From: Ginglymostoma cirratum
Taxonomy: Eukaryota
Direction of reading: 5' to 3'
DNA length: 64,000 nt
Assembly: GCA_024137785.1 (NCBI GenBank)
Contig: JAHRHZ010000144.1
Location: 80,299,606 to 80,363,605 of the forward strand
The position numbers were made by a program, and so were the translations under genes. Below, piece after piece: positions 1,168-63,863 of the stretch (the first letter of the stretch is position 1; each line of letters opens with the position of its first letter). A model generated the notes under the pieces. It searched no databases, was not told the DNA's origin, and worked only from the letters and a program-made list of their open reading frames with translations.

Positions 1168-1362
1168 ATGGAGCCTTGCATGGAGTATTTCTTGGCACAA
1201 GTGCTGCAGAAAGACATGGGACGTCGGGTGCAAATTGCTCAGGAGCTGATAGAGTACATCACAGATCGCCAAAAATCCCATGATCTGGAACAGGACCAAT
1301 CTATGCTGGATCGAATGGTTGATGGCCTTGCTGCTGGTTGGGTAAACTCCAGTAACTTCAAG
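1168..1362 (+). CDS. CLASP1: CLIP-associating protein 1, first coding exon (TOG1 domain N-terminus, 65 codons)
   Basis: MEPCMEYFLAQVLQKDMGRRVQIAQELIEYITDRQKSHDLEQDQSMLDRMVDGLAAGWVNSSNFK closely matches the human CLASP1 N-terminus (MEPRMESCLAQVLQKDVGKRLQVGQELIDY...WVNSSNYK). Ends at AAG|gtatgc donor, phase 0. Confidence 0.96.
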
Positions 1363-35717: not shown

Positions 35718-35794
35718 GGTGCCAGAGCTCAGTTGATTAAAGTGCCTGCCTGGTAAACAGGACATCCTGGGCTCAAATCTCAGTCATGCCTCCG
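35718..35794 (+). pseudogene. tRNA-Thr(AGT)-derived pseudogene
   Basis: GGTGCCAGAGCTCAGTTGATTAAAGTGCCTGCCTGGTAAACAGGACATCCTGGGCTCAAATCTCAGTCATGCCT+CCG is colinear with vertebrate tRNA-Thr-AGT (GGCGCCGTGGCTTAGTTGGTTAAAGCGCCTGTCTAGTAAACAGGAGATCCTGGGTTCGAATCCCAGCGGTGCCT). T-loop and acceptor stem are broken. Confidence 0.8.
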
Positions 35795-50560: not shown

Positions 50561-52470
50561 TGAGCTGTTGCTCTCTTCCTCACATTGGGGCAGTAAAGTG
50601 GGAAGTGAGTGGGAGAGGGGTAGGGCTAAGGATCAGTGAGCAGTAGGGTGAGGGAAATGAGGTAACAAGCTGGAAAGTCAGAGACGAATTAGCAAGTGAA
50701 TGTTTTTGTTAGGTTCAAGAAAAGCTGATAGAACTTTAATGTAACAATAACATGTCAGATACTTATCCCACCCTCGCTACATGCTTGCTTAAGAGAAATT
50801 GACTTTCATCTAGTACACCACTTTTGAGGGTTTCTTTCGGACCGTAAGGAATGCCAAGCCAGGGTTTACTGCACGTAAATGTAGATTGCTTTTTCTGTTC
50901 TCTCTCTTGTGGTTTTGGCTGCTTGTATGGTAATGTATTCTGTACTTTGAGTATATTTTGTCCTCGTCCCTCTCTCCACTTCTAGTAATAACTTTAAATT
51001 GGTTGGTTTGCTTCAGTTAAAGCTCCCAATCACTAACTCACTCAATGTTCCTGATTTATTAAACATTGTCGAGGTGGTTCTTTTATCGATGACTTTTTAT
51101 TGTTGTGGAACAAAAGTTCATTAACTCCAGCTCAAAACTGAATCTTCTTACACATTTTAATTTTCCTGTCAAGGTGCTTCACAAGACTGTTATTGGACAG
51201 AATTTGACAGCAAGCTGTGAGAGAAGAGATTAGGACAGTTGACCAAAAGCTGGAAGTAGATTTCAGGAGTGTTTAAAGATAAAAAGATCGCTAAGGAAGG
51301 GAATTCCAGTTGGTAGAAACCAATAAGCTCAAGGCATTATTGTCAATGATGCTGCAATTAAATTCAGGACTGAGCAAGACCAGAATTAGCAAAATGCACA
51401 AATCTGAGGAGTTTGTGATCTGGAGAGAGGAGGAGGCGTGGAAGGATTTGCCAACATGGATAGTAACATAAAACAAAGATGTATCACAACTCGAAGCCAT
51501 GATAGATCAAACAGTACAATTAAGGGACGCAGATTGGGTAGATGGGAAGAAGCATTTCCCCTGAATAGAAGGGTCAGTAACCACGGGGGCATAGATTTAA
51601 GGTTAAGGGCAGGATGTTTAAAGGGGATTTAAGGAAGAATGCTCTCACCAAGAGGGTGGTGGGTGTCTGGAGTGTACTTCCTAAAAGGGCAATAGAGGCA
51701 GGAACCCTCGGACATTTTTAGGAAGTATTTGGATGAACACTTGACTCATAACATACAAGGTTACTGACCTGACAGGTGCTCGATGACTTTTATGACACAA
51801 AATGCCTTTGGCCTGTTAACAATTATACAGGTTTGAATGACATAGGCAATTGAAAGATATATGGCACAATCGAGTGACAAGTGCGGTAAGGCTCATCTTG
51901 ACATTGGGAGCAGCTTGCAGCATGATTTTGGTTTTTCAAGCGGTATAGTGAGATTCCTGCCAGGTATCAGTGAGTTTCCAATTGACTGTGATTGTTCATA
52001 GAGTCAGAGTCCTAAAGCATGGACACAGGTTCTTCAGCCCAAACTGGTCCATGTTGACCAAAATGTCCATCCACGCTACCCCCTTTGCCTGCACTTGGCC
52101 CATGTCCTTCTAAACCTTTCCTCTGCATGTATTTTGTCCAAATGCCTTTTTAACTGTTGTTAATGTACTTGCCTCAATGTCTGTCATGGTCTTATAGAAG
52201 TGTTTAAGATCCCCACATCCAACCCCCCCCACCCCGCCCCACTCAGTGTCCTAGGCTGTAAAGAGAAAAGTCTTAGCTTGTCCAACCTTTCCCTATAATC
52301 CAGTCCCTTGAGTCTTGGCAACATCCTTGTAAATTTCTTCTGCACTCTTTACAGTTTAATAACATCCTTCCTATAGCAAGGAGACCATAACCAAACATAA
52401 TACTCCAAGTGCGGCCTCACCAATGTGCTGTAATGACTACAACATAACGTCACAACCTCTGTACTCTGTG

Positions 52471-53675
52471 TAGATGTTGGTGTGCTCACTGAGCTGGGAG
52501 GTTTGATAGCAGACGCTTTGACCCCTTACTCGGTGGCATCCTCAATGCTGTGGAGTCTCCGGTGATGTGCTGTTGCCTTGTGCTGGTTCGAATTTACGTG
52601 GTCTGGTTTTTGCTGCTTCCGGTCAGTGCCGATTCCGGCTGTGCGTTGTAATGGTTGGTATATCGGGTCTAATTCAACGTGTTCGTTGATGGAATCCGGG
52701 GGTGAATGTCAAGCCCCGGAGAATTCCCTGGCTGTCCTGTGTTTGGCTTGTCCAATGTTGTCTCATTGACAGTGTGGTTTTTTTCCTTGTGTGTATTGAA
52801 ACCAAGGACACCTGGTTGTGTCATTTAGTTGCTAGCTGGTGTTGGTGGATATGGGTTGCTAGTTGTTTACCTGTTTGTCCCGCAGTGTTTTGTGCAGTCT
52901 CTGTGTGGTATCTTGTAAACCACATTTGTCCTGTCCATGGTATCAATTGGATATTTAACCTTGGTCAGTTGTTGTCTTAGCATGGCTGCTGGTTTGTGTG
53001 CTGTCACGACTCCTAGTGGTCTGAGTAGTCTGGCTGTCAGTTCTGAGGTGTTTTTTATATATGGTATGGTTCTTATTGTTTCAGGTTTTGGTGTGTCCTG
53101 GTTGTGTTGCCTTTGGCTAGGCATCTGTTGATGAAGTTGCAGGGGTATCCATTCCTGGTAAGGACCTTGTAGAGGTGTTCTTCTTCCTTCTGTAAATCGG
53201 TCATGCTGCAGTGTGTAGTGGCCCTTTTGAACAGGGTCCGAATGCAGCTCCTCTTGTGTGAGTTGAGGTGGTTGCTGTGATAGTTTAAGACCTGGTCAGT
53301 TTGCGTGGATATTCTGTATGCTTTTGCAGTGAAGTCACCATTCTCTTTCTTTTCCACCATCACGTCCAGGAATGGGAGTTCGTTCTTTTCCTCCTCTCGT
53401 AAATTTGATCCCTGTCGGTATGGTGTCGACGAGTTGGTGGGTGTTCTCAATTTCTGTTCTTTTCATAATTACGAAAATGTCATCCACGTATCTGATCCAG
53501 AGCTTGGGTTGGATCTGTGGGAGGACTGTTTGTTCCAGTCTTTGCATGACTGCCTCAGCTATCAGTCCGGACATGGGTGAGCCCATGGGAGTCCCATTGA
53601 TCTGCTCGTATATCTTGCCGTTGAATGTAAAGTGTGTTGTTAAGCATAAGTCCAGTATTTTGAGTATGCACTGTT
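52471..53675 (-). mobile_element. Penelope-like element (RT + GIY-YIG), 5'-truncated
   Basis: FTFNGKIYEQINGTPMGSPMSGLIAEAVM, WIRYVDDIF, LPFLDVMV, TIPYIK..SE, NVVYKIP. Flanked by tgtactctgtg (52460-52470) and tgtactcagtg (53676-53686). Confidence 0.92.
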
Positions 53676-54867
53676 TGTACTCAGTGCCCTGACTGATGAA
53701 GGCCTGTGTGCCAAAAGCCACCTTTGCTACCCTGTCTGCCTGTGACTCCACTTTCGGAGAACTCTGCTCCTGAACTCCAAGGTCCACCTGTTCCACTACA
53801 CTCCTTTTTTTAAGGCACTACCAATCACCAATAAGCTCCTACTTTGATTTGACTTTGCAAAATGCAACACCTCACAGTTATCTGTATTAAACTCCTCCTT
53901 TTAGCCATTTCTCCTCCCACTTCCCCCACTGATCAAGATCCTGCTGCAATTTCTGATCAACTTCCTCACTGTTTGTGATACCCCCTATTTTAATGTCATC
54001 CATAAACCTACTAATCATGCCTTATACATTCTCATCCAAATCGTTGAAATAGATAACAAACAGCTTTGGGCCCAGCACCAACCGCTGAGGCACACCACTA
54101 ATTGCAGGCCTTTAGGCTGACAAGCATCCTTCCACTATTATTCTCTACTTCCTACCATCAAGCCAATTGTGCATCCAATTTGCCAGTTCTCACTGGATTC
54201 CATGTGGTCTGACCTTCCAGAGCAGCCTACCATGTGGAACCTCATCAAAGTTCTTACTGAAATCCATATAGTCTACGTCTACCACCCTGCCCTCAGCAAC
54301 TTTTGTGGTCACTTCATCAAAGAACTCTAACAAATTTGTGAGGCGCGATCTCTCTCACACAAAGCCATGCTGACTACTCCTAATCAAACCCTTTTTTTCA
54401 AATTACATGTATATCTTTTACTTGAGAAGATTCTCAAGTAACTTGCCTACCACAGATGTTAAGCTTACTGGTCTGTAGTTTCTGGGTTCTTCTTTGCAGC
54501 CCTTCTTAAAAAGAGCATAACATTCCCTCCCTCTGGTCTTCTGGGACCTCACCCGTGGCTAACAATGATGCAAATATATCAGCCAAGGCCCCACAATTTC
54601 TTCTCTAGCTTCTTGCAGGGTTCTTAGATATATTTGATCAGGACCAGGAGATTTATCCACCTTCATACATTCTAATACTTCCAACACCATCTCAATTGTG
54701 ATATGGACTGTCCCCAAGATATCGCCACTAACTTCCCATGTCGTCTTGGCTTCCTCCACGGTAAACACAGAGGAGAAATATTCATTGAGGACCTCACCCA
54801 TCTCTTGTGGTTCCACCCATACATGTCCAGTTTGGTCCTTGAGGGATTTTTTTTTGTTTTTGTTTTT

Positions 54868-55223
54868 TTGTTTTATTCGCTCACAGGATGAGGGCATTGC
54901 TGGCCAGGCAGCATTTATTGCCCATTCCTAATTGCCCAGAGGGCAGTTTGGAGTCAACCGCGTTGCTGTGGGTCTGGAGTCACGTGTAGGCCAGACCAGG
55001 TAGGGATGGCAGTTTCCTTTCCTAAAGGACATTAGTGAACCAGATGGGTTTTTCCCGACAATCGTCAAGGGATTTGTGGTCATCATTAGACTCCTAATTC
55101 CAGATACTTATTGAATTCAAATTCCACTATCTGCAGTGGCAGCATTCAAACCTGGGTCCCCAGAAATCTGGGGTCTCTGGATTAACAGTCCAGTGATAAT
55201 GCCACTAGGCCATCACCTCCCCC
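54868..55223 (-). mobile_element. Second-family SINE nested in a CR1 element
   Basis: Full homolog of 24122-24470 with an A-rich tail, lying between the endonuclease and RT parts of the CR1. Confidence 0.82.
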
Positions 55224-57897
55224 TTTTCTCTGTCTAGTTATTCTTTTTCCTTTTAACATACTTAAAGGATCTCTTTGGATTCACCCATTCTTCTCAGCCA
55301 AAGCTATCTCGTGCCCCGTTTCGTCCTCCTGTATCCCCTATATACCTCCAGGGATTCCCTTGATCCCAGCTGCCTGTTCCTGAGCCATGTCTCTTTTATT
55401 TGTTTGTTCTGGTCAAAGCCTCTTGTCATTCTAGGTTCCCTACTCCTGCCAACCTTGCCCTTCACCTGCACAGGAAAATACAGACTTTGAATTCTAACTA
55501 TCACTCTTTTTTAAAGGCCTCCCAGTGCTGGAGGTTCCTTTTGCCTGCAAACAAACTACTCCAATCAACCCCTGCAAGTTCCTGTCTAATTCCATCAACA
55601 TTTGCCTTGCCCCAGTTTTTCAAACTTAAACCTGTGGACCAGTTTTGTCCTTCTCCGTAACTATTTTAATATTAGTAGAACTATGGTCACTGGTTCCACA
55701 GTGCTCCCCCAGTGTCATCTTAGCCACCTGGCTTGCCCAATTTCCCAAGAGTAGGTTGGGTTTTGTCCCTTCCCAAGTAGGACCTTCTGTATACTGCTTG
55801 AGGAAACTTTCCTCAACGTGTTTAACAAATTCCACCCCATCTATGCCCTTAACACCAAGGCACTCCCAGTCTCTGCTAGGAAAATTAAAATCCCCTGCTA
55901 TGACAGCCCTATTGCTCCTGCACGTCTCACCAGTCTCCCTGCATATTTGTTCCTCTAATTCCCGTTGACTATTTGGGGGCCAATAGTACAACCCCAATAA
56001 CGTCACTATTCCCCTCTTATTTCTTCACTCCACCCACAAAGCTGCAATGGATGATCTGTTATTTCATCTGACCACTGTTGTGATACTCTCTTTAATCAAA
56101 AATGCAATTCCCAGACACCTTCTCCTGCCCCGAGGAAAGCGCCTGTGCACTGGCACGTTGGGCTGCCAGTCCTGTCCCTGTTTCTGTAATGGCTATAATA
56201 ACCTCGCCCCACGTACTCATCTGCAGCCTGAGTTCAGTGGACTTACCTGTCACCCCTCTTGCATTGAAATAGATGCAATTTAATCTCTTCAGCATTCCTC
56301 GCTCCCTGTTTTGGTGCAACCCATCCCTCTTGAACAGGTCACCTCTCTGCCCCAGAACAGATTCCAGTGATCCAAGAATCTGGATCCCTGCCCCTGCACA
56401 GATTCTTTAGCCATGAATTCATCTGCCATATCCTCCTGTTTTTATTCTCCTGTTCTTAGTCTCACTAGAATGTGTAGAATATGGCACTGAAAGTAATCCA
56501 GAGATTACCAGCGTCGAAGTCCTGGATTTTTAACTTCTTTCCTATTTCTCTAGAATCACTCTGCAGGACTTTATCCCTATTTCTATCTATGTCAATTGTG
56601 TCAACGTGCACAATAACTTCTGGCTGCTCACCTTCCCCCTTGAGACATCCTGGACATGCGCACCTGAGAGGCAACACACTATCCTGGATTCCTCTCTGTG
56701 GCCACAGAATCTCCTGTTTGTCCCGCTAACTATCGAGTCTCCTATCACTTGGGTCCTGTTTACCTTTACCCTTTCCCGTTTGCTCCAGAGCCAGTTGTAT
56801 CCAAAACGTTATACTTGTTTTCGAGGACATTGGCTGCAGGGGATTCCTGCACTCCCTGCCTACCCGCTTTGGCTTTCCTGGTGGTCACCCAGCTACTCTC
56901 TGCTTGCCTCTTAGGGAGACTGCCTCACCAAAGCTCTTATCTATGATGCGCTGTTGACAGCAGGCCCACGAGAATCCATTCTTCAGTGCAGGCGACTGCT
57001 TCCAGGCTCTAATGCATGCTCTTCCCCGTCAGTCACCCTGTGCTGGATTATTTCTTTTTTAAACTTGCTGTTAACAGCCCAACTCTCCTCATTAATATTC
57101 AGCCTCCTATTTTATCAAACTTACCAAAAGAGCTCAACAAAAACTCAGCAAGGAAATCAGCACAAGCAGGATTTAGTTGATGCTTGCTCATATCGACTTT
57201 GTTGGAAACCATTACTGGCCACGCATACTCTGAGTCCTCTACATTCTGATGCTGCACCATGACTGCACTGGCAACTATTATTGTAATGTTGCAAAAAAGG
57301 ACACTGCGTAGCTCAGGGGCACATACTCAGCTCATGAGTTAAGCTAGGCTGCACCTCTGGGCTCTTTTCTTGCTGTTTTAGAGAGAGTACGGAGAGGTGG
57401 CTGGATTCACATAGCATACCTGTATTGCATTGCATGCTTTGCCTTACCTTTTTGTGTTCTGTCCCCTCAGCCAGAAATACCAGGCTCGTATTACTGTTTT
57501 CCTGCTGTGCAGTTTAGCACAGGCACAAACCAGGCAACTTGTCCTAGTGGGCTGCCATCAGTTCAAGGGGATTAGCCTTTGGGCAGGATGTTCCAGCATG
57601 GCAAATCAAGGATCGTGTCCATACCAGCCCAGACCCTTCATAGGTTAGTCAGAGTCAGGGTCCTCTTCAGGTGAGAGGTGAGAAGTCAAATGTTAAGCAG
57701 CTCACCGCTCGTTTTGATTTTTTTTTTTTTCCTCTGCCCTATTATGGACTGTCTGAAATGAGCATGTGTGTGTGAGGGAGAGAGAGGGGGGCAGGTATTA
57801 CAGGAGGTGAAAATAGGTGATGCAGCTATTACTTCTAATGCAGCTGTGGAGATGTCTAAAGTGTTGGAGTAAGTAACTAAGAAGGCAGGCAGAGTTA

Positions 57898-61181: not shown

Positions 61182-61300
61182 CAGAAAAAATAAATAGTGT
61201 TTTTCCCCAAAATTCATGAAGCTAAATTTCTGGATTGTGTATTACATGCACCACAGAACACAGTTGCTGAATCACTATTTAATTTCACAAATATTAAAGG

Positions 61301-61426
61301 TTCCAAAAATTGCACCGTAGCCTAAACAAATGTCTAGGTGATGCACATGTGTTGTAATGGTGTTAGCAGTGCTGTTCTCACCAAACGTTCATTGAACAGC
61401 AACACAACCCCAAGATAAGGACAGTT
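61301..61426 (-). ncRNA. RNU4ATAC: U4atac minor-spliceosome snRNA
   Basis: Reverse complement AACTGTCCTTATCTTGGGGTTGTGTTGCTGTTCAATGAACGTTTGGTGAGAACAGCACTGCTAACACCATTACAACACATGTGCATCACCTAGACATTTGTTTAGGCTACGGTGCAATTTTTGGAA. It has the U6atac stem II segment, a k-turn 5' stem-loop (UGCUGUUC/GAACAGCA, AAUGA..UGA), stem I CUGCUAAC, a 3' stem-loop, and the Sm site AAUUUUUGG at nt 116-124. Syntenic with the human gene. Exact 3' end uncertain by a few nt. Confidence 0.96.
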
Positions 61427-61467: not shown

Positions 61468-61486
61468 CACCTTTAACTTATGGTGA
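61468..61486 (-). promoter_or_regulatory. Proximal sequence element (PSE, SNAPc site) of U4atac
   Basis: TCACCATAAGTTAAAGGTG at -60 to -42 from the snRNA start; matches the vertebrate snRNA PSE pattern and position. Confidence 0.85.
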
Positions 61487-61613
61487 CTATTTTTCTATTT
61501 TTGTTTGGCTTCTTTGCAGATTAGTACATCTTTATTAATTACTTTTATTAGTGTTTAATGATGTTTAAAACGCAGTGAGTGTGCATTTTTGGGCAGAAAA
61601 TAGTTATTCAAAT

Positions 61614-61632
61614 TACCCACAATGCATTGTGG
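61614..61632 (+). promoter_or_regulatory. SPH element (ZNF143/Staf site) in the U4atac distal sequence element
   Basis: TACCCACAATGCATTGTGG, a near-canonical ZNF143 motif ~190-205 nt upstream of the snRNA start; imperfect octamer-like ATGCTAAC (- strand) at 61647-61654. Confidence 0.82.
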
Positions 61633-62920: not shown

Positions 62921-62999
62921 GTAGCTTTATTTGGTATAGAAATTTTATCAACCCTCATTTCACGTCTTCAAGATCACTTTAAAACGCATATTGGTACAG
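62921..62999 (+). CDS. CLASP1: CLASP1 second coding exon (79 nt)
   Basis: tttttacag|GTA acceptor; translates VALFGIEILSTLISRLQDHFKTHIGT (human VVLLGMDILSALVTRLQDRFKAQIGT); G|gtatgt donor, phase 1. Confidence 0.95.
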
Positions 63000-63759: not shown

Positions 63760-63863
63760 TATTGCCAAGTCTAATAGATAGACTAGGGGATGCTAAGGAT
63801 CCAGTTCGAGAACAAGATCAAATCCTCCTGTTAAAAATTATGGAGCTATCGGCTACTCCACAG
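63760..63863 (+). CDS. CLASP1: CLASP1 third coding exon (104 nt)
   Basis: tttatgcag| acceptor; phase-compatible; translates (V)LPSLIDRLGDAKDPVREQDQILLLKIMELSATPQ (human VLPSLIDRLGDAKDSVREQDQTLLLKIMDQAANPQ); CAG|gtacat donor. Confidence 0.96.

What the first reader, a model, noticed from the sequence alone, without database searches (positions are those of the whole stretch)
61370..61401. Shark U4atac carries the human disease allele 51A, naturally compensated by U32
Seen: numbering is colinear with human; nt 51 (pos 61376) is A and its partner nt 32 (pos 61395) is U, so human C32-G51 becomes U32-A51. Other 5' stem-loop changes also keep pairing (A27-U56 to G-C; U31.G52 to U-A; G39.U47 to A-U). 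Known, from recall: 51G>A is the recurrent MOPD1/Taybi-Linder mutation, and a 32C>T second-site change was reported to rescue it. Other disease-associated positions (C13, G16, G30, G37, G48, G50, C53, G55, G111, U118, G124) match the human wild type. Inference: a compensated pathogenic deviation in an ncRNA, useful for variant interpretation.
Basis: partly seen in the sequence, partly recalled or inferred. Interest (0 to 1): 0.8.

Follow-up and report, generated by a model that had tools for sequence, protein, structure and literature searches.

The report
Disease allele 51A: ancestral U4atac base
This animal's minor-spliceosome RNA U4atac has A at the position where A causes a human dwarfism syndrome, paired with U so the stem stays intact; most non-mammalian vertebrates in a published alignment have the same pair, so it is likely the ordinary ancestral state and not a shark oddity.

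Summary
Window 61299-61426 (minus strand) is an intact U4atac snRNA gene (Rfam 101.4 bits) in CLASP1 intron 2. It has a PSE-like promoter element and pairs with the genome's U6atac. Numbering is colinear with human. Nt 51 is A and nt 32 is U, so the human disease base 51A sits in a Watson-Crick U-A pair.

This is not special to sharks. In a 2008 published alignment (counted by eye), 9 of 10 non-mammalian vertebrates have U32-A51 and one has U.G. All 5 mammals have C32-G51, and 0 of 38 rows have the disease state C.A. Zebrafish's knockout-proven functional gene also has U32-A51.

Mammals are likely the derived group, and human n.51G>A is likely a lone return to the ancestral base. This is ordinary base-pair covariation in a k-turn stem. 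I found no paper saying so in words. The 32C>T rescue experiment is recalled only, because that paper was not held. Interest is low.

The parts
61299..61426 (-). U4atac snRNA gene (nt 1 = 61426; the exact 3' end was not determined)
   Evidence: Rfam RF00618, 101.4 bits, 61425-61299; the only match at E<=0.001 in G000 among 51 candidates scored
61395..61395 (-). nt 32 = U, the -2b position of the k-turn C helix (human C32)
   Evidence: human allele; k-turn numbering rule, applied by me
61376..61376 (-). nt 51 = A, the -2n position; the base of human disease allele n.51G>A
   Evidence: disease allele
61370..61401 (-). 5' stem-loop, nt 26-57: eight-pair stem (26-33 with 50-57), k-turn core A34 A35 U36, G37.A49, A38.G48, then A39-U47, C40-G46 and a five-base loop
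   Evidence: fold; Rfam structure line
61408..61424 (-). stem II strand (nt 3-19), pairs with U6atac; A11 pairs with U40 of this genome's U6atac
   Evidence: co-fold with U6atac copies L004-L006
61362..61368 (-). stem I strand (nt 59-65), complementary to U6atac
   Evidence: identical to the human reference alleles. The co-fold formed stem I with L006; with L004 and L005 it chose an alternative pairing to the U6atac 5' end
61311..61345 (-). 3' stem-loop, nt 82-116, diverged in sequence but folding
61303..61311 (-). Sm site, nt 116-124
   Evidence: same as the consensus Sm site quoted in PMC9992838 SI
61470..61486 (-). PSE-like promoter element at -60
   Evidence: a similar word at -60/-61 before this genome's best U12 (L014) and U4 (L016) genes; contigs from other loci of organisms A, C and D match this stretch
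61613..61631 (+). SPH/ZNF143-like element about 190-205 bases upstream, beside an octamer-like word (weak)
   Evidence: 1 mismatch to a recalled consensus; 7 matches with up to 2 mismatches in the window against 1.5 expected, so not specific on its own
1168..1362 (+). CLASP1 first coding exon (65 codons, followed by GT)
   Evidence: its length fits the next exon starting at residue 66; not searched against PDB on its own
62921..62999 (+). CLASP1 exon, residues 66-91
   Evidence: best PDB match CLASP1 6mq5, E 1.2e-4; CLASP2 E 0.074
63760..63863 (+). CLASP1 next exon, residues 92-126
   Evidence: best PDB match CLASP1, E 8.1e-13; CLASP2 2.8e-6

Best explanation
This is an intact U4atac snRNA gene in CLASP1 intron 2 with U at nt 32 and A at nt 51, a pair that likely keeps the k-turn stem closed for SNU13/15.5K binding and is likely the ancestral vertebrate state from which mammals moved to C-G. 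Shown: the gene, the numbering, the two bases, and the same pair in most non-mammalian vertebrates of a published alignment. Inferred mechanism: the protein needs a closed, short canonical helix next to the three-base bulge, not a particular base at this second pair. U-A, U.G and C-G all serve. C.A, the human disease state, opens the pair and in the model also the neighbouring C33-G50 pair, which would explain the reported loss of 15.5K and PRPF31 binding. Inferred history: U-A to U.G to C-G on the mammalian stem, never passing through C.A; human n.51G>A is then a lone back-mutation to the ancestral base.
For: Gene, host intron and partner; PMC9992838 SI places the human and mouse genes in CLASP1 intron 2. 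Cross-species count by eye from the U4atac alignment of PMC2396436 (38 rows). Vertebrates (15): 5 of 5 mammals C-G; 9 of 10 others U-A (chicken, lizard, Xenopus, elephant shark, lamprey, zebrafish, Fugu, stickleback, medaka); Tetraodon U.G. All animals (31): 16 U-A, 8 C-G, 5 U.G, 2 mismatches other than C.A. C.A in 0 of 38. U-A is also in the sea anemone and sponge rows. The zebrafish morpholino target aligns at 20 of 25 bases to nt 32-56 (next best offset 11 of 25) with U32 and A51, and deleting that gene causes intron retention and arrest. Fixed-structure energies in this RNA's background: U-A -10.0, U.G -9.5, C-G -12.4, C.A -5.5 kcal/mol; probability of pair 33-50 is 0.99, 0.96, 1.00 and 0.02. 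L7Ae-family proteins read the G.A guanines and loop bases, and the C helix gives ribose contacts (PMC5061560 passages). Human 51G>A cut competition for 15.5K by more than 80% (PMC4114687 passage).
Against: No expression or binding data for this animal's RNA. The 38 rows are best-scoring predictions, one per species, from 2008, counted by eye, and related species are not independent. No tree was built, so ancestry rests on where the states fall among known groups. Only 5 mammals and no monotreme are in the set. The pea aphid (U.C) and silk moth (G.A) rows show a mismatch here, so pairing is not absolute, or those rows are misaligned or non-functional. Four of the five plant rows have insertions or shifts and could not be read with confidence. 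The closest outgroups to vertebrates in the file (two Ciona, sea urchin) have U.G, so U-A is surer for the vertebrate ancestor than for deeper nodes. The folding model does not represent k-turn geometry. The 32C>T rescue is recalled only.
Confidence: 0.88

Rival explanations
1. A shark-lineage change: the human C32-G51 pair is ancestral and sharks gained the disease base with a compensating change.
For: The window does differ from human at both positions. C-G also occurs in two mosquitoes, one Drosophila and Rhizopus.
Against: U32-A51 is in lamprey, elephant shark, four teleosts, frog, lizard and chicken. Among vertebrates C-G is confined to the 5 mammals.
Confidence: 0.03
2. A51 is tolerated only with more than U32: other changes in the RNA (G27-C56, A52, A39) or in SNU13/PRPF31 are also needed, so mammals have become dependent on C-G.
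For: U-A is 2.4 kcal/mol weaker than C-G in the model. The window also has stronger pairs at 27-56 and 39-47 than human.
Against: The lizard row has U32-A51 with mammal-like A27-U56, and Xenopus has U32-A51 with G39.U47. Changing nt 52 leaves the U-A energy unchanged. Human U4atac rescues zebrafish, so fish proteins accept C-G. A recalled experiment says 32C>T alone largely rescues 51G>A (not verified).
Confidence: 0.07
3. The locus is a decayed copy or has an assembly error, so A51 says nothing about function (in zebrafish the clasp1a-linked copy is the dispensable one).
For: The zebrafish precedent. No RNA evidence for this locus. Genome searches score only the best candidates (51 scored).
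Against: It is the only full-length copy found by two searches; the other copy starts at nt 52. Sm site, k-turn core, stems I and II and the PSE-like element are intact. Three related organisms show no change to G51 or C32.
Confidence: 0.02

Closest known systems
U4atac snRNA (Rfam RF00618; human RNU4ATAC in CLASP1 intron 2)
   Same: Same family, host intron, opposite-strand orientation, numbering, k-turn, stems I and II and Sm site.
   Different: 33 of 126 positions differ from human (by eye), including U32-A51, G27-C56, A52, A39, A11 and A66.
Elephant shark, chicken, lizard, Xenopus, lamprey and teleost U4atac in the alignment of PMC2396436; zebrafish u4atac_chr11 in PMC9992838
   Same: The same U32-A51 pair. 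Fig. S2C of PMC9992838 aligns the human and zebrafish genes with an arrow at 51G (legend only; the picture is not held).
   Different: A further species; the passages I saw do not remark on the pair.
Compensated pathogenic deviations in mitochondrial tRNA stems (Kern and Kondrashov 2004, as reviewed in PMC4141909)
   Same: A human disease base is wild type in another species because its Watson-Crick partner also differs (passages).
   Different: Here the RNA is a nuclear snRNA, and the non-human state is likely the older one.
Major-spliceosome U4 k-turn (RNU4-2 n.26-52 equals RNU4ATAC n.31-57)
   Same: Same k-turn and protein partner.
   Different: This genome's best U4 copy (L016) keeps C27-G46 at the equivalent pair, so the U-A pair is particular to U4atac here.

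Membership tests
U4atac snRNA | Scores above the Rfam gathering threshold over the whole model | tested here: met
   101.4 against 53 bits, positions 1-132
U4atac snRNA | Pairs with U6atac through stems I and II | tested here: met
   Stem II formed with 3 of 3 U6atac copies tried; stem I formed with 1 of 3 in the unconstrained co-fold, and nt 59-65 equal the human alleles
U4atac snRNA | k-turn in the 5' stem-loop (three-base bulge, tandem G.A/A.G, closed canonical stem) | tested here: met
   Sequence and fold; geometry itself not modelled
U4atac snRNA | Sm site near the 3' end | tested here: met
   nt 116-124
U4atac snRNA | snRNA-type polymerase II promoter (PSE near -60) | tested here: met
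   Similar word at the same distance before this genome's U12 and U4; sequence likeness only
U4atac snRNA | Expressed and assembled into the minor tri-snRNP | not testable with these tools
   No RNA reads were laid on this locus; assembly needs bench work
RNU4ATAC ortholog | Lies in CLASP1 intron 2 | tested here: met
   Between the first coding exon (1168-1362) and the exon for residues 66-91 (62921-62999); the two exons searched match CLASP1 better than CLASP2
Compensated pathogenic deviation | The human disease base is the fixed wild-type base at the homologous site in another species | tested here: met
Compensated pathogenic deviation | A second change restores the structure | tested here: met
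   U32 pairs with A51; C.A in 0 of 38 rows; model energies
Compensated pathogenic deviation | The second change restores function experimentally | not testable with these tools
   Indirect support: the zebrafish gene with U32-A51 is essential. The human double-mutant rescue is recalled; paper not held
Shark-specific change | U32-A51 is restricted to sharks | tested here: not met
   Present in lamprey, teleosts, frog, lizard, chicken and 7 invertebrate rows

The most novel reading that the evidence does not exclude
The commonest RNU4ATAC disease allele is a return to the base most vertebrates still use, and this has not been stated in print: mammals switched the 32-51 pair from U-A to C-G through a U.G step. 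The rare human variant n.32C>T (16 of 161,800 alleles) recreates that step and would suppress n.51G>A on the same chromosome. The same alignment holds further natural suppressors (chicken C29-G54, insect A30-U53), so pair-aware comparison across animals could separate U4atac variants that act through pairing from those that act through base identity.
Probability: 0.45. Interest if true: 0.35.

Novelty: new member of a known kind. Interest (0 to 1): 0.2.

Why it matters
It is natural evidence that n.51G>A harms by breaking a base pair, not by losing a specific base. It warns that single-column conservation can mislead for RNA stems: placental PhyloP at nt 51 is 1.37, against 2.12-2.63 for the other seven alleles in Table 1 of PMC4667643. 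It also reminds users of fish, frog and chick models that their native U4atac already has 51A, so the disease state there would be made at nt 32. None of this changes the classification of 51G>A or what is known of the minor spliceosome.

Tried and rejected
Indel shifting the numbering: rejected. A second intact gene carrying G51: not found (lower bounds, only the best candidates are scored). The one other copy (L002) is homologous only from nt 52 and says nothing on nt 51. Shark-specific change: rejected. Nt 52 offsetting the weaker U-A pair: no effect in the model. Whole-RNA folding z-scores were unremarkable (-0.66 and -0.93), as expected for an RNA that folds with U6atac, and were not used as evidence. 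Expression: no RNA holder listed, and no RNA-like run was laid, so expression is open. Run X11, 99% or more alike to the window, did not cover nt 32 or 51. Papers not held: He et al. 2011, Liu et al. 2011, Padgett and Shukla 2002. Searches for a printed statement of the 32/51 covariation or the rescue found none; two searches were swamped by general terms and are weak. Most subscription papers and all figures are outside the library, and Fig. S2C of PMC9992838, Supplementary Figs 2-3 of PMC4667643 and the bioRxiv supplements were not seen and may show or remark on it. Earlier scan notes: nothing. Branchiostoma is not in the 2008 file.

Full report
What is there. Rfam finds U4atac (RF00618) at window 61425-61299 on the minus strand, 101.4 bits against a threshold of 53, over the whole model. 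The predicted fold has the expected eight-pair stem (26-33 with 50-57), the k-turn internal loop and a 3' stem-loop.

Numbering. I compared the window by eye, without gaps, with published human alleles. 61 of 79 positions (nt 1-79) equal the reference column in the supplementary table of PMC7337319, and 93 of 126 equal the human row printed in the supplement of PMC2396436. The Sm site lands on nt 116-124. Of 24 disease positions, 21 match the human reference. Nt 51 carries the disease base; nt 5 and nt 66 differ from human but not to the disease base.

Is it the working gene? It lies in CLASP1 intron 2, on the opposite strand. The first coding exon is at 1168-1362, and exons at 62921-62999 and 63760-63863 match CLASP1 better than CLASP2. 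PMC9992838 places the human and mouse genes in the same intron. A PSE-like word sits at -60, as before this genome's best U12 and U4 genes; an SPH-like element further up is weak evidence. Stem II forms with 3 of 3 U6atac copies tried and stem I with 1 of 3 in an unconstrained co-fold. Two genome searches found one full-length copy (lower bounds) and one copy that begins at nt 52. Contigs from coded organisms A, C and D cover both sites with no change to G51 or C32 (for D, 8 rows were hidden, but the tallies show all T>C and A>G changes were listed). The fourth run laid did not cover the site. Expression was not shown. One caution: in zebrafish the clasp1a-linked copy is the dispensable one, so position alone does not prove function.

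How widespread is U32-A51? The published morpholino against the zebrafish gene u4atac_chr11 aligns to nt 32-56 at 20 of 25 bases (next best offset 11) and reads U32 and A51. Deleting that gene causes minor-intron retention and arrest by 22 hpf. The U4atac alignment in supplementary file 3 of PMC2396436 has 38 rows, which I counted by eye. Among 15 vertebrates, the 5 mammals (dog, human, opossum, mouse, rat) have C-G. Nine others have U-A (chicken, lizard, Xenopus, elephant shark, lamprey, zebrafish, Fugu, stickleback, medaka), and Tetraodon has U.G. Among all 31 animals: 16 U-A, 8 C-G, 5 U.G, 2 other mismatches (pea aphid U.C, silk moth G.A). The two fungi have U-A and C-G. Of five plants, one reads U.G and four have shifts that I could not read with confidence. 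No row has C.A. These are single best-scoring predictions from 2008, related species are not independent, and no tree was built.

How it likely works. By the numbering rule in PMC5061560, 32-51 is the second pair of the canonical helix. The passages seen say L7Ae-family proteins recognise the G.A guanines and cap the loop bases, while the canonical helix contributes ribose hydrogen bonds. PMC4114687 reports that human 51G>A cuts competition for 15.5K by more than 80% and impairs tri-snRNP formation. In this RNA's background the fixed-structure energies are U-A -10.0, U.G -9.5, C-G -12.4 and C.A -5.5 kcal/mol, and the neighbouring 33-50 pair has probability 0.96 or more except with C.A (0.02) (the model ignores k-turn geometry). 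I infer that the site needs a pair, not a given base. The likely path is U-A to U.G to C-G on the mammalian stem, which avoids C.A; U.G exists in 5 animal rows, and human n.32C>T (which gives U.G) was seen in 16 of 161,800 alleles with no patient listed. Human n.51G>A is then likely a lone reversion to the older base.

Comparison with what is known. The gene is an ordinary U4atac ortholog. A disease base rescued by its Watson-Crick partner is the leading example of compensation in mitochondrial tRNA stems (PMC4141909). The U32-A51 pair has been visible in a public alignment since 2008, a cartilaginous fish included, and the legend of Fig. S2C of PMC9992838 describes a human-zebrafish alignment with an arrow at 51G (picture not held). 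Seven searches found no sentence stating the covariation; two were weak, and figures and most subscription papers are not searched.

What I saw of each paper. PMC7337319: passages, supplement rows, parts 1-2 of 5 of supplementary file 3. PMC9992838: passages, methods section 17, supplement search, SI part 3 of 5. PMC2396436: passages, supplement list and searches, part 48 of 49 of file 3. PMC4667643: passages, figure and table section, supplement search. Passages only: PMC4114687, bioRxiv 10.64898/2026.08.20.745718 (23), PMC13550442, PMC5784706, PMC13083247, PMC5786027, PMC13063612, PMC5061560, PMC4141909. Not held. Recalled and from no call: the rescue experiment, the SPH consensus and part of the CLASP peptide patterns.

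Verdict. Observation confirmed; interpretation partly supported. It is a real compensated deviation, but it is the usual non-mammalian vertebrate state and not a shark novelty. New member of a known kind; interest 0.2.

Noticed in passing
window 61416 (U4atac nt 11) with L004 U6atac nt 40: A11 pairs with U40 of this genome's U6atac. In the 2008 alignment chicken also has A with U, zebrafish G with C, and human U with C, a mismatch: covariation between the two RNAs in stem II.
   Followed up: partly
PMC2396436 supplementary file 3, U4atac rows: Other human disease bases seem to be wild type elsewhere, by eye: chicken C29 with G54 (n.29T>C), Xenopus U53 opposite G30 (n.53C>T), and A30 with U53 in Aedes, honeybee, Daphnia and Ciona savignyi (n.30G>A with n.53C>T).
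   Followed up: no
L002 1508-1585, minus strand (G000:C270:11661741-11661824): A 5'-truncated U4atac copy from nt 52 to a little past the Sm site, 86% identical. Organisms A and C have contigs with the same junction, so the insertion predates their split. Likely a retrocopy.
   Followed up: partly
G000, L004-L013 and 32 further places: 42 U6atac matches at E<=0.001 against 1 for U4atac and 2 for U12. L004 has a TATA-like word about 30 bases upstream and looks like the source gene; six other copies viewed lack that upstream sequence.
   Followed up: partly
window 61361 (nt 66) and 61422 (nt 5): Differ from human at disease positions without carrying the disease base. A66 is common outside mammals. 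A contig of organism D has A5 instead of G5.
   Followed up: partly
window 35718-35791 +: Marginal tRNA match (29.2 bits, threshold 29, several broken pairs); likely a tRNA-derived repeat in the CLASP1 intron.
   Followed up: no
window about 52200-56400: Broken reading frames resembling reverse transcriptase and endonuclease pieces of non-LTR retroelements (resemblance judged from recall, not searched).
   Followed up: no
L002 2620-2696: A long inverted repeat scoring weakly against several microRNA families, far below their thresholds; likely two repeat copies head to head.
   Followed up: no
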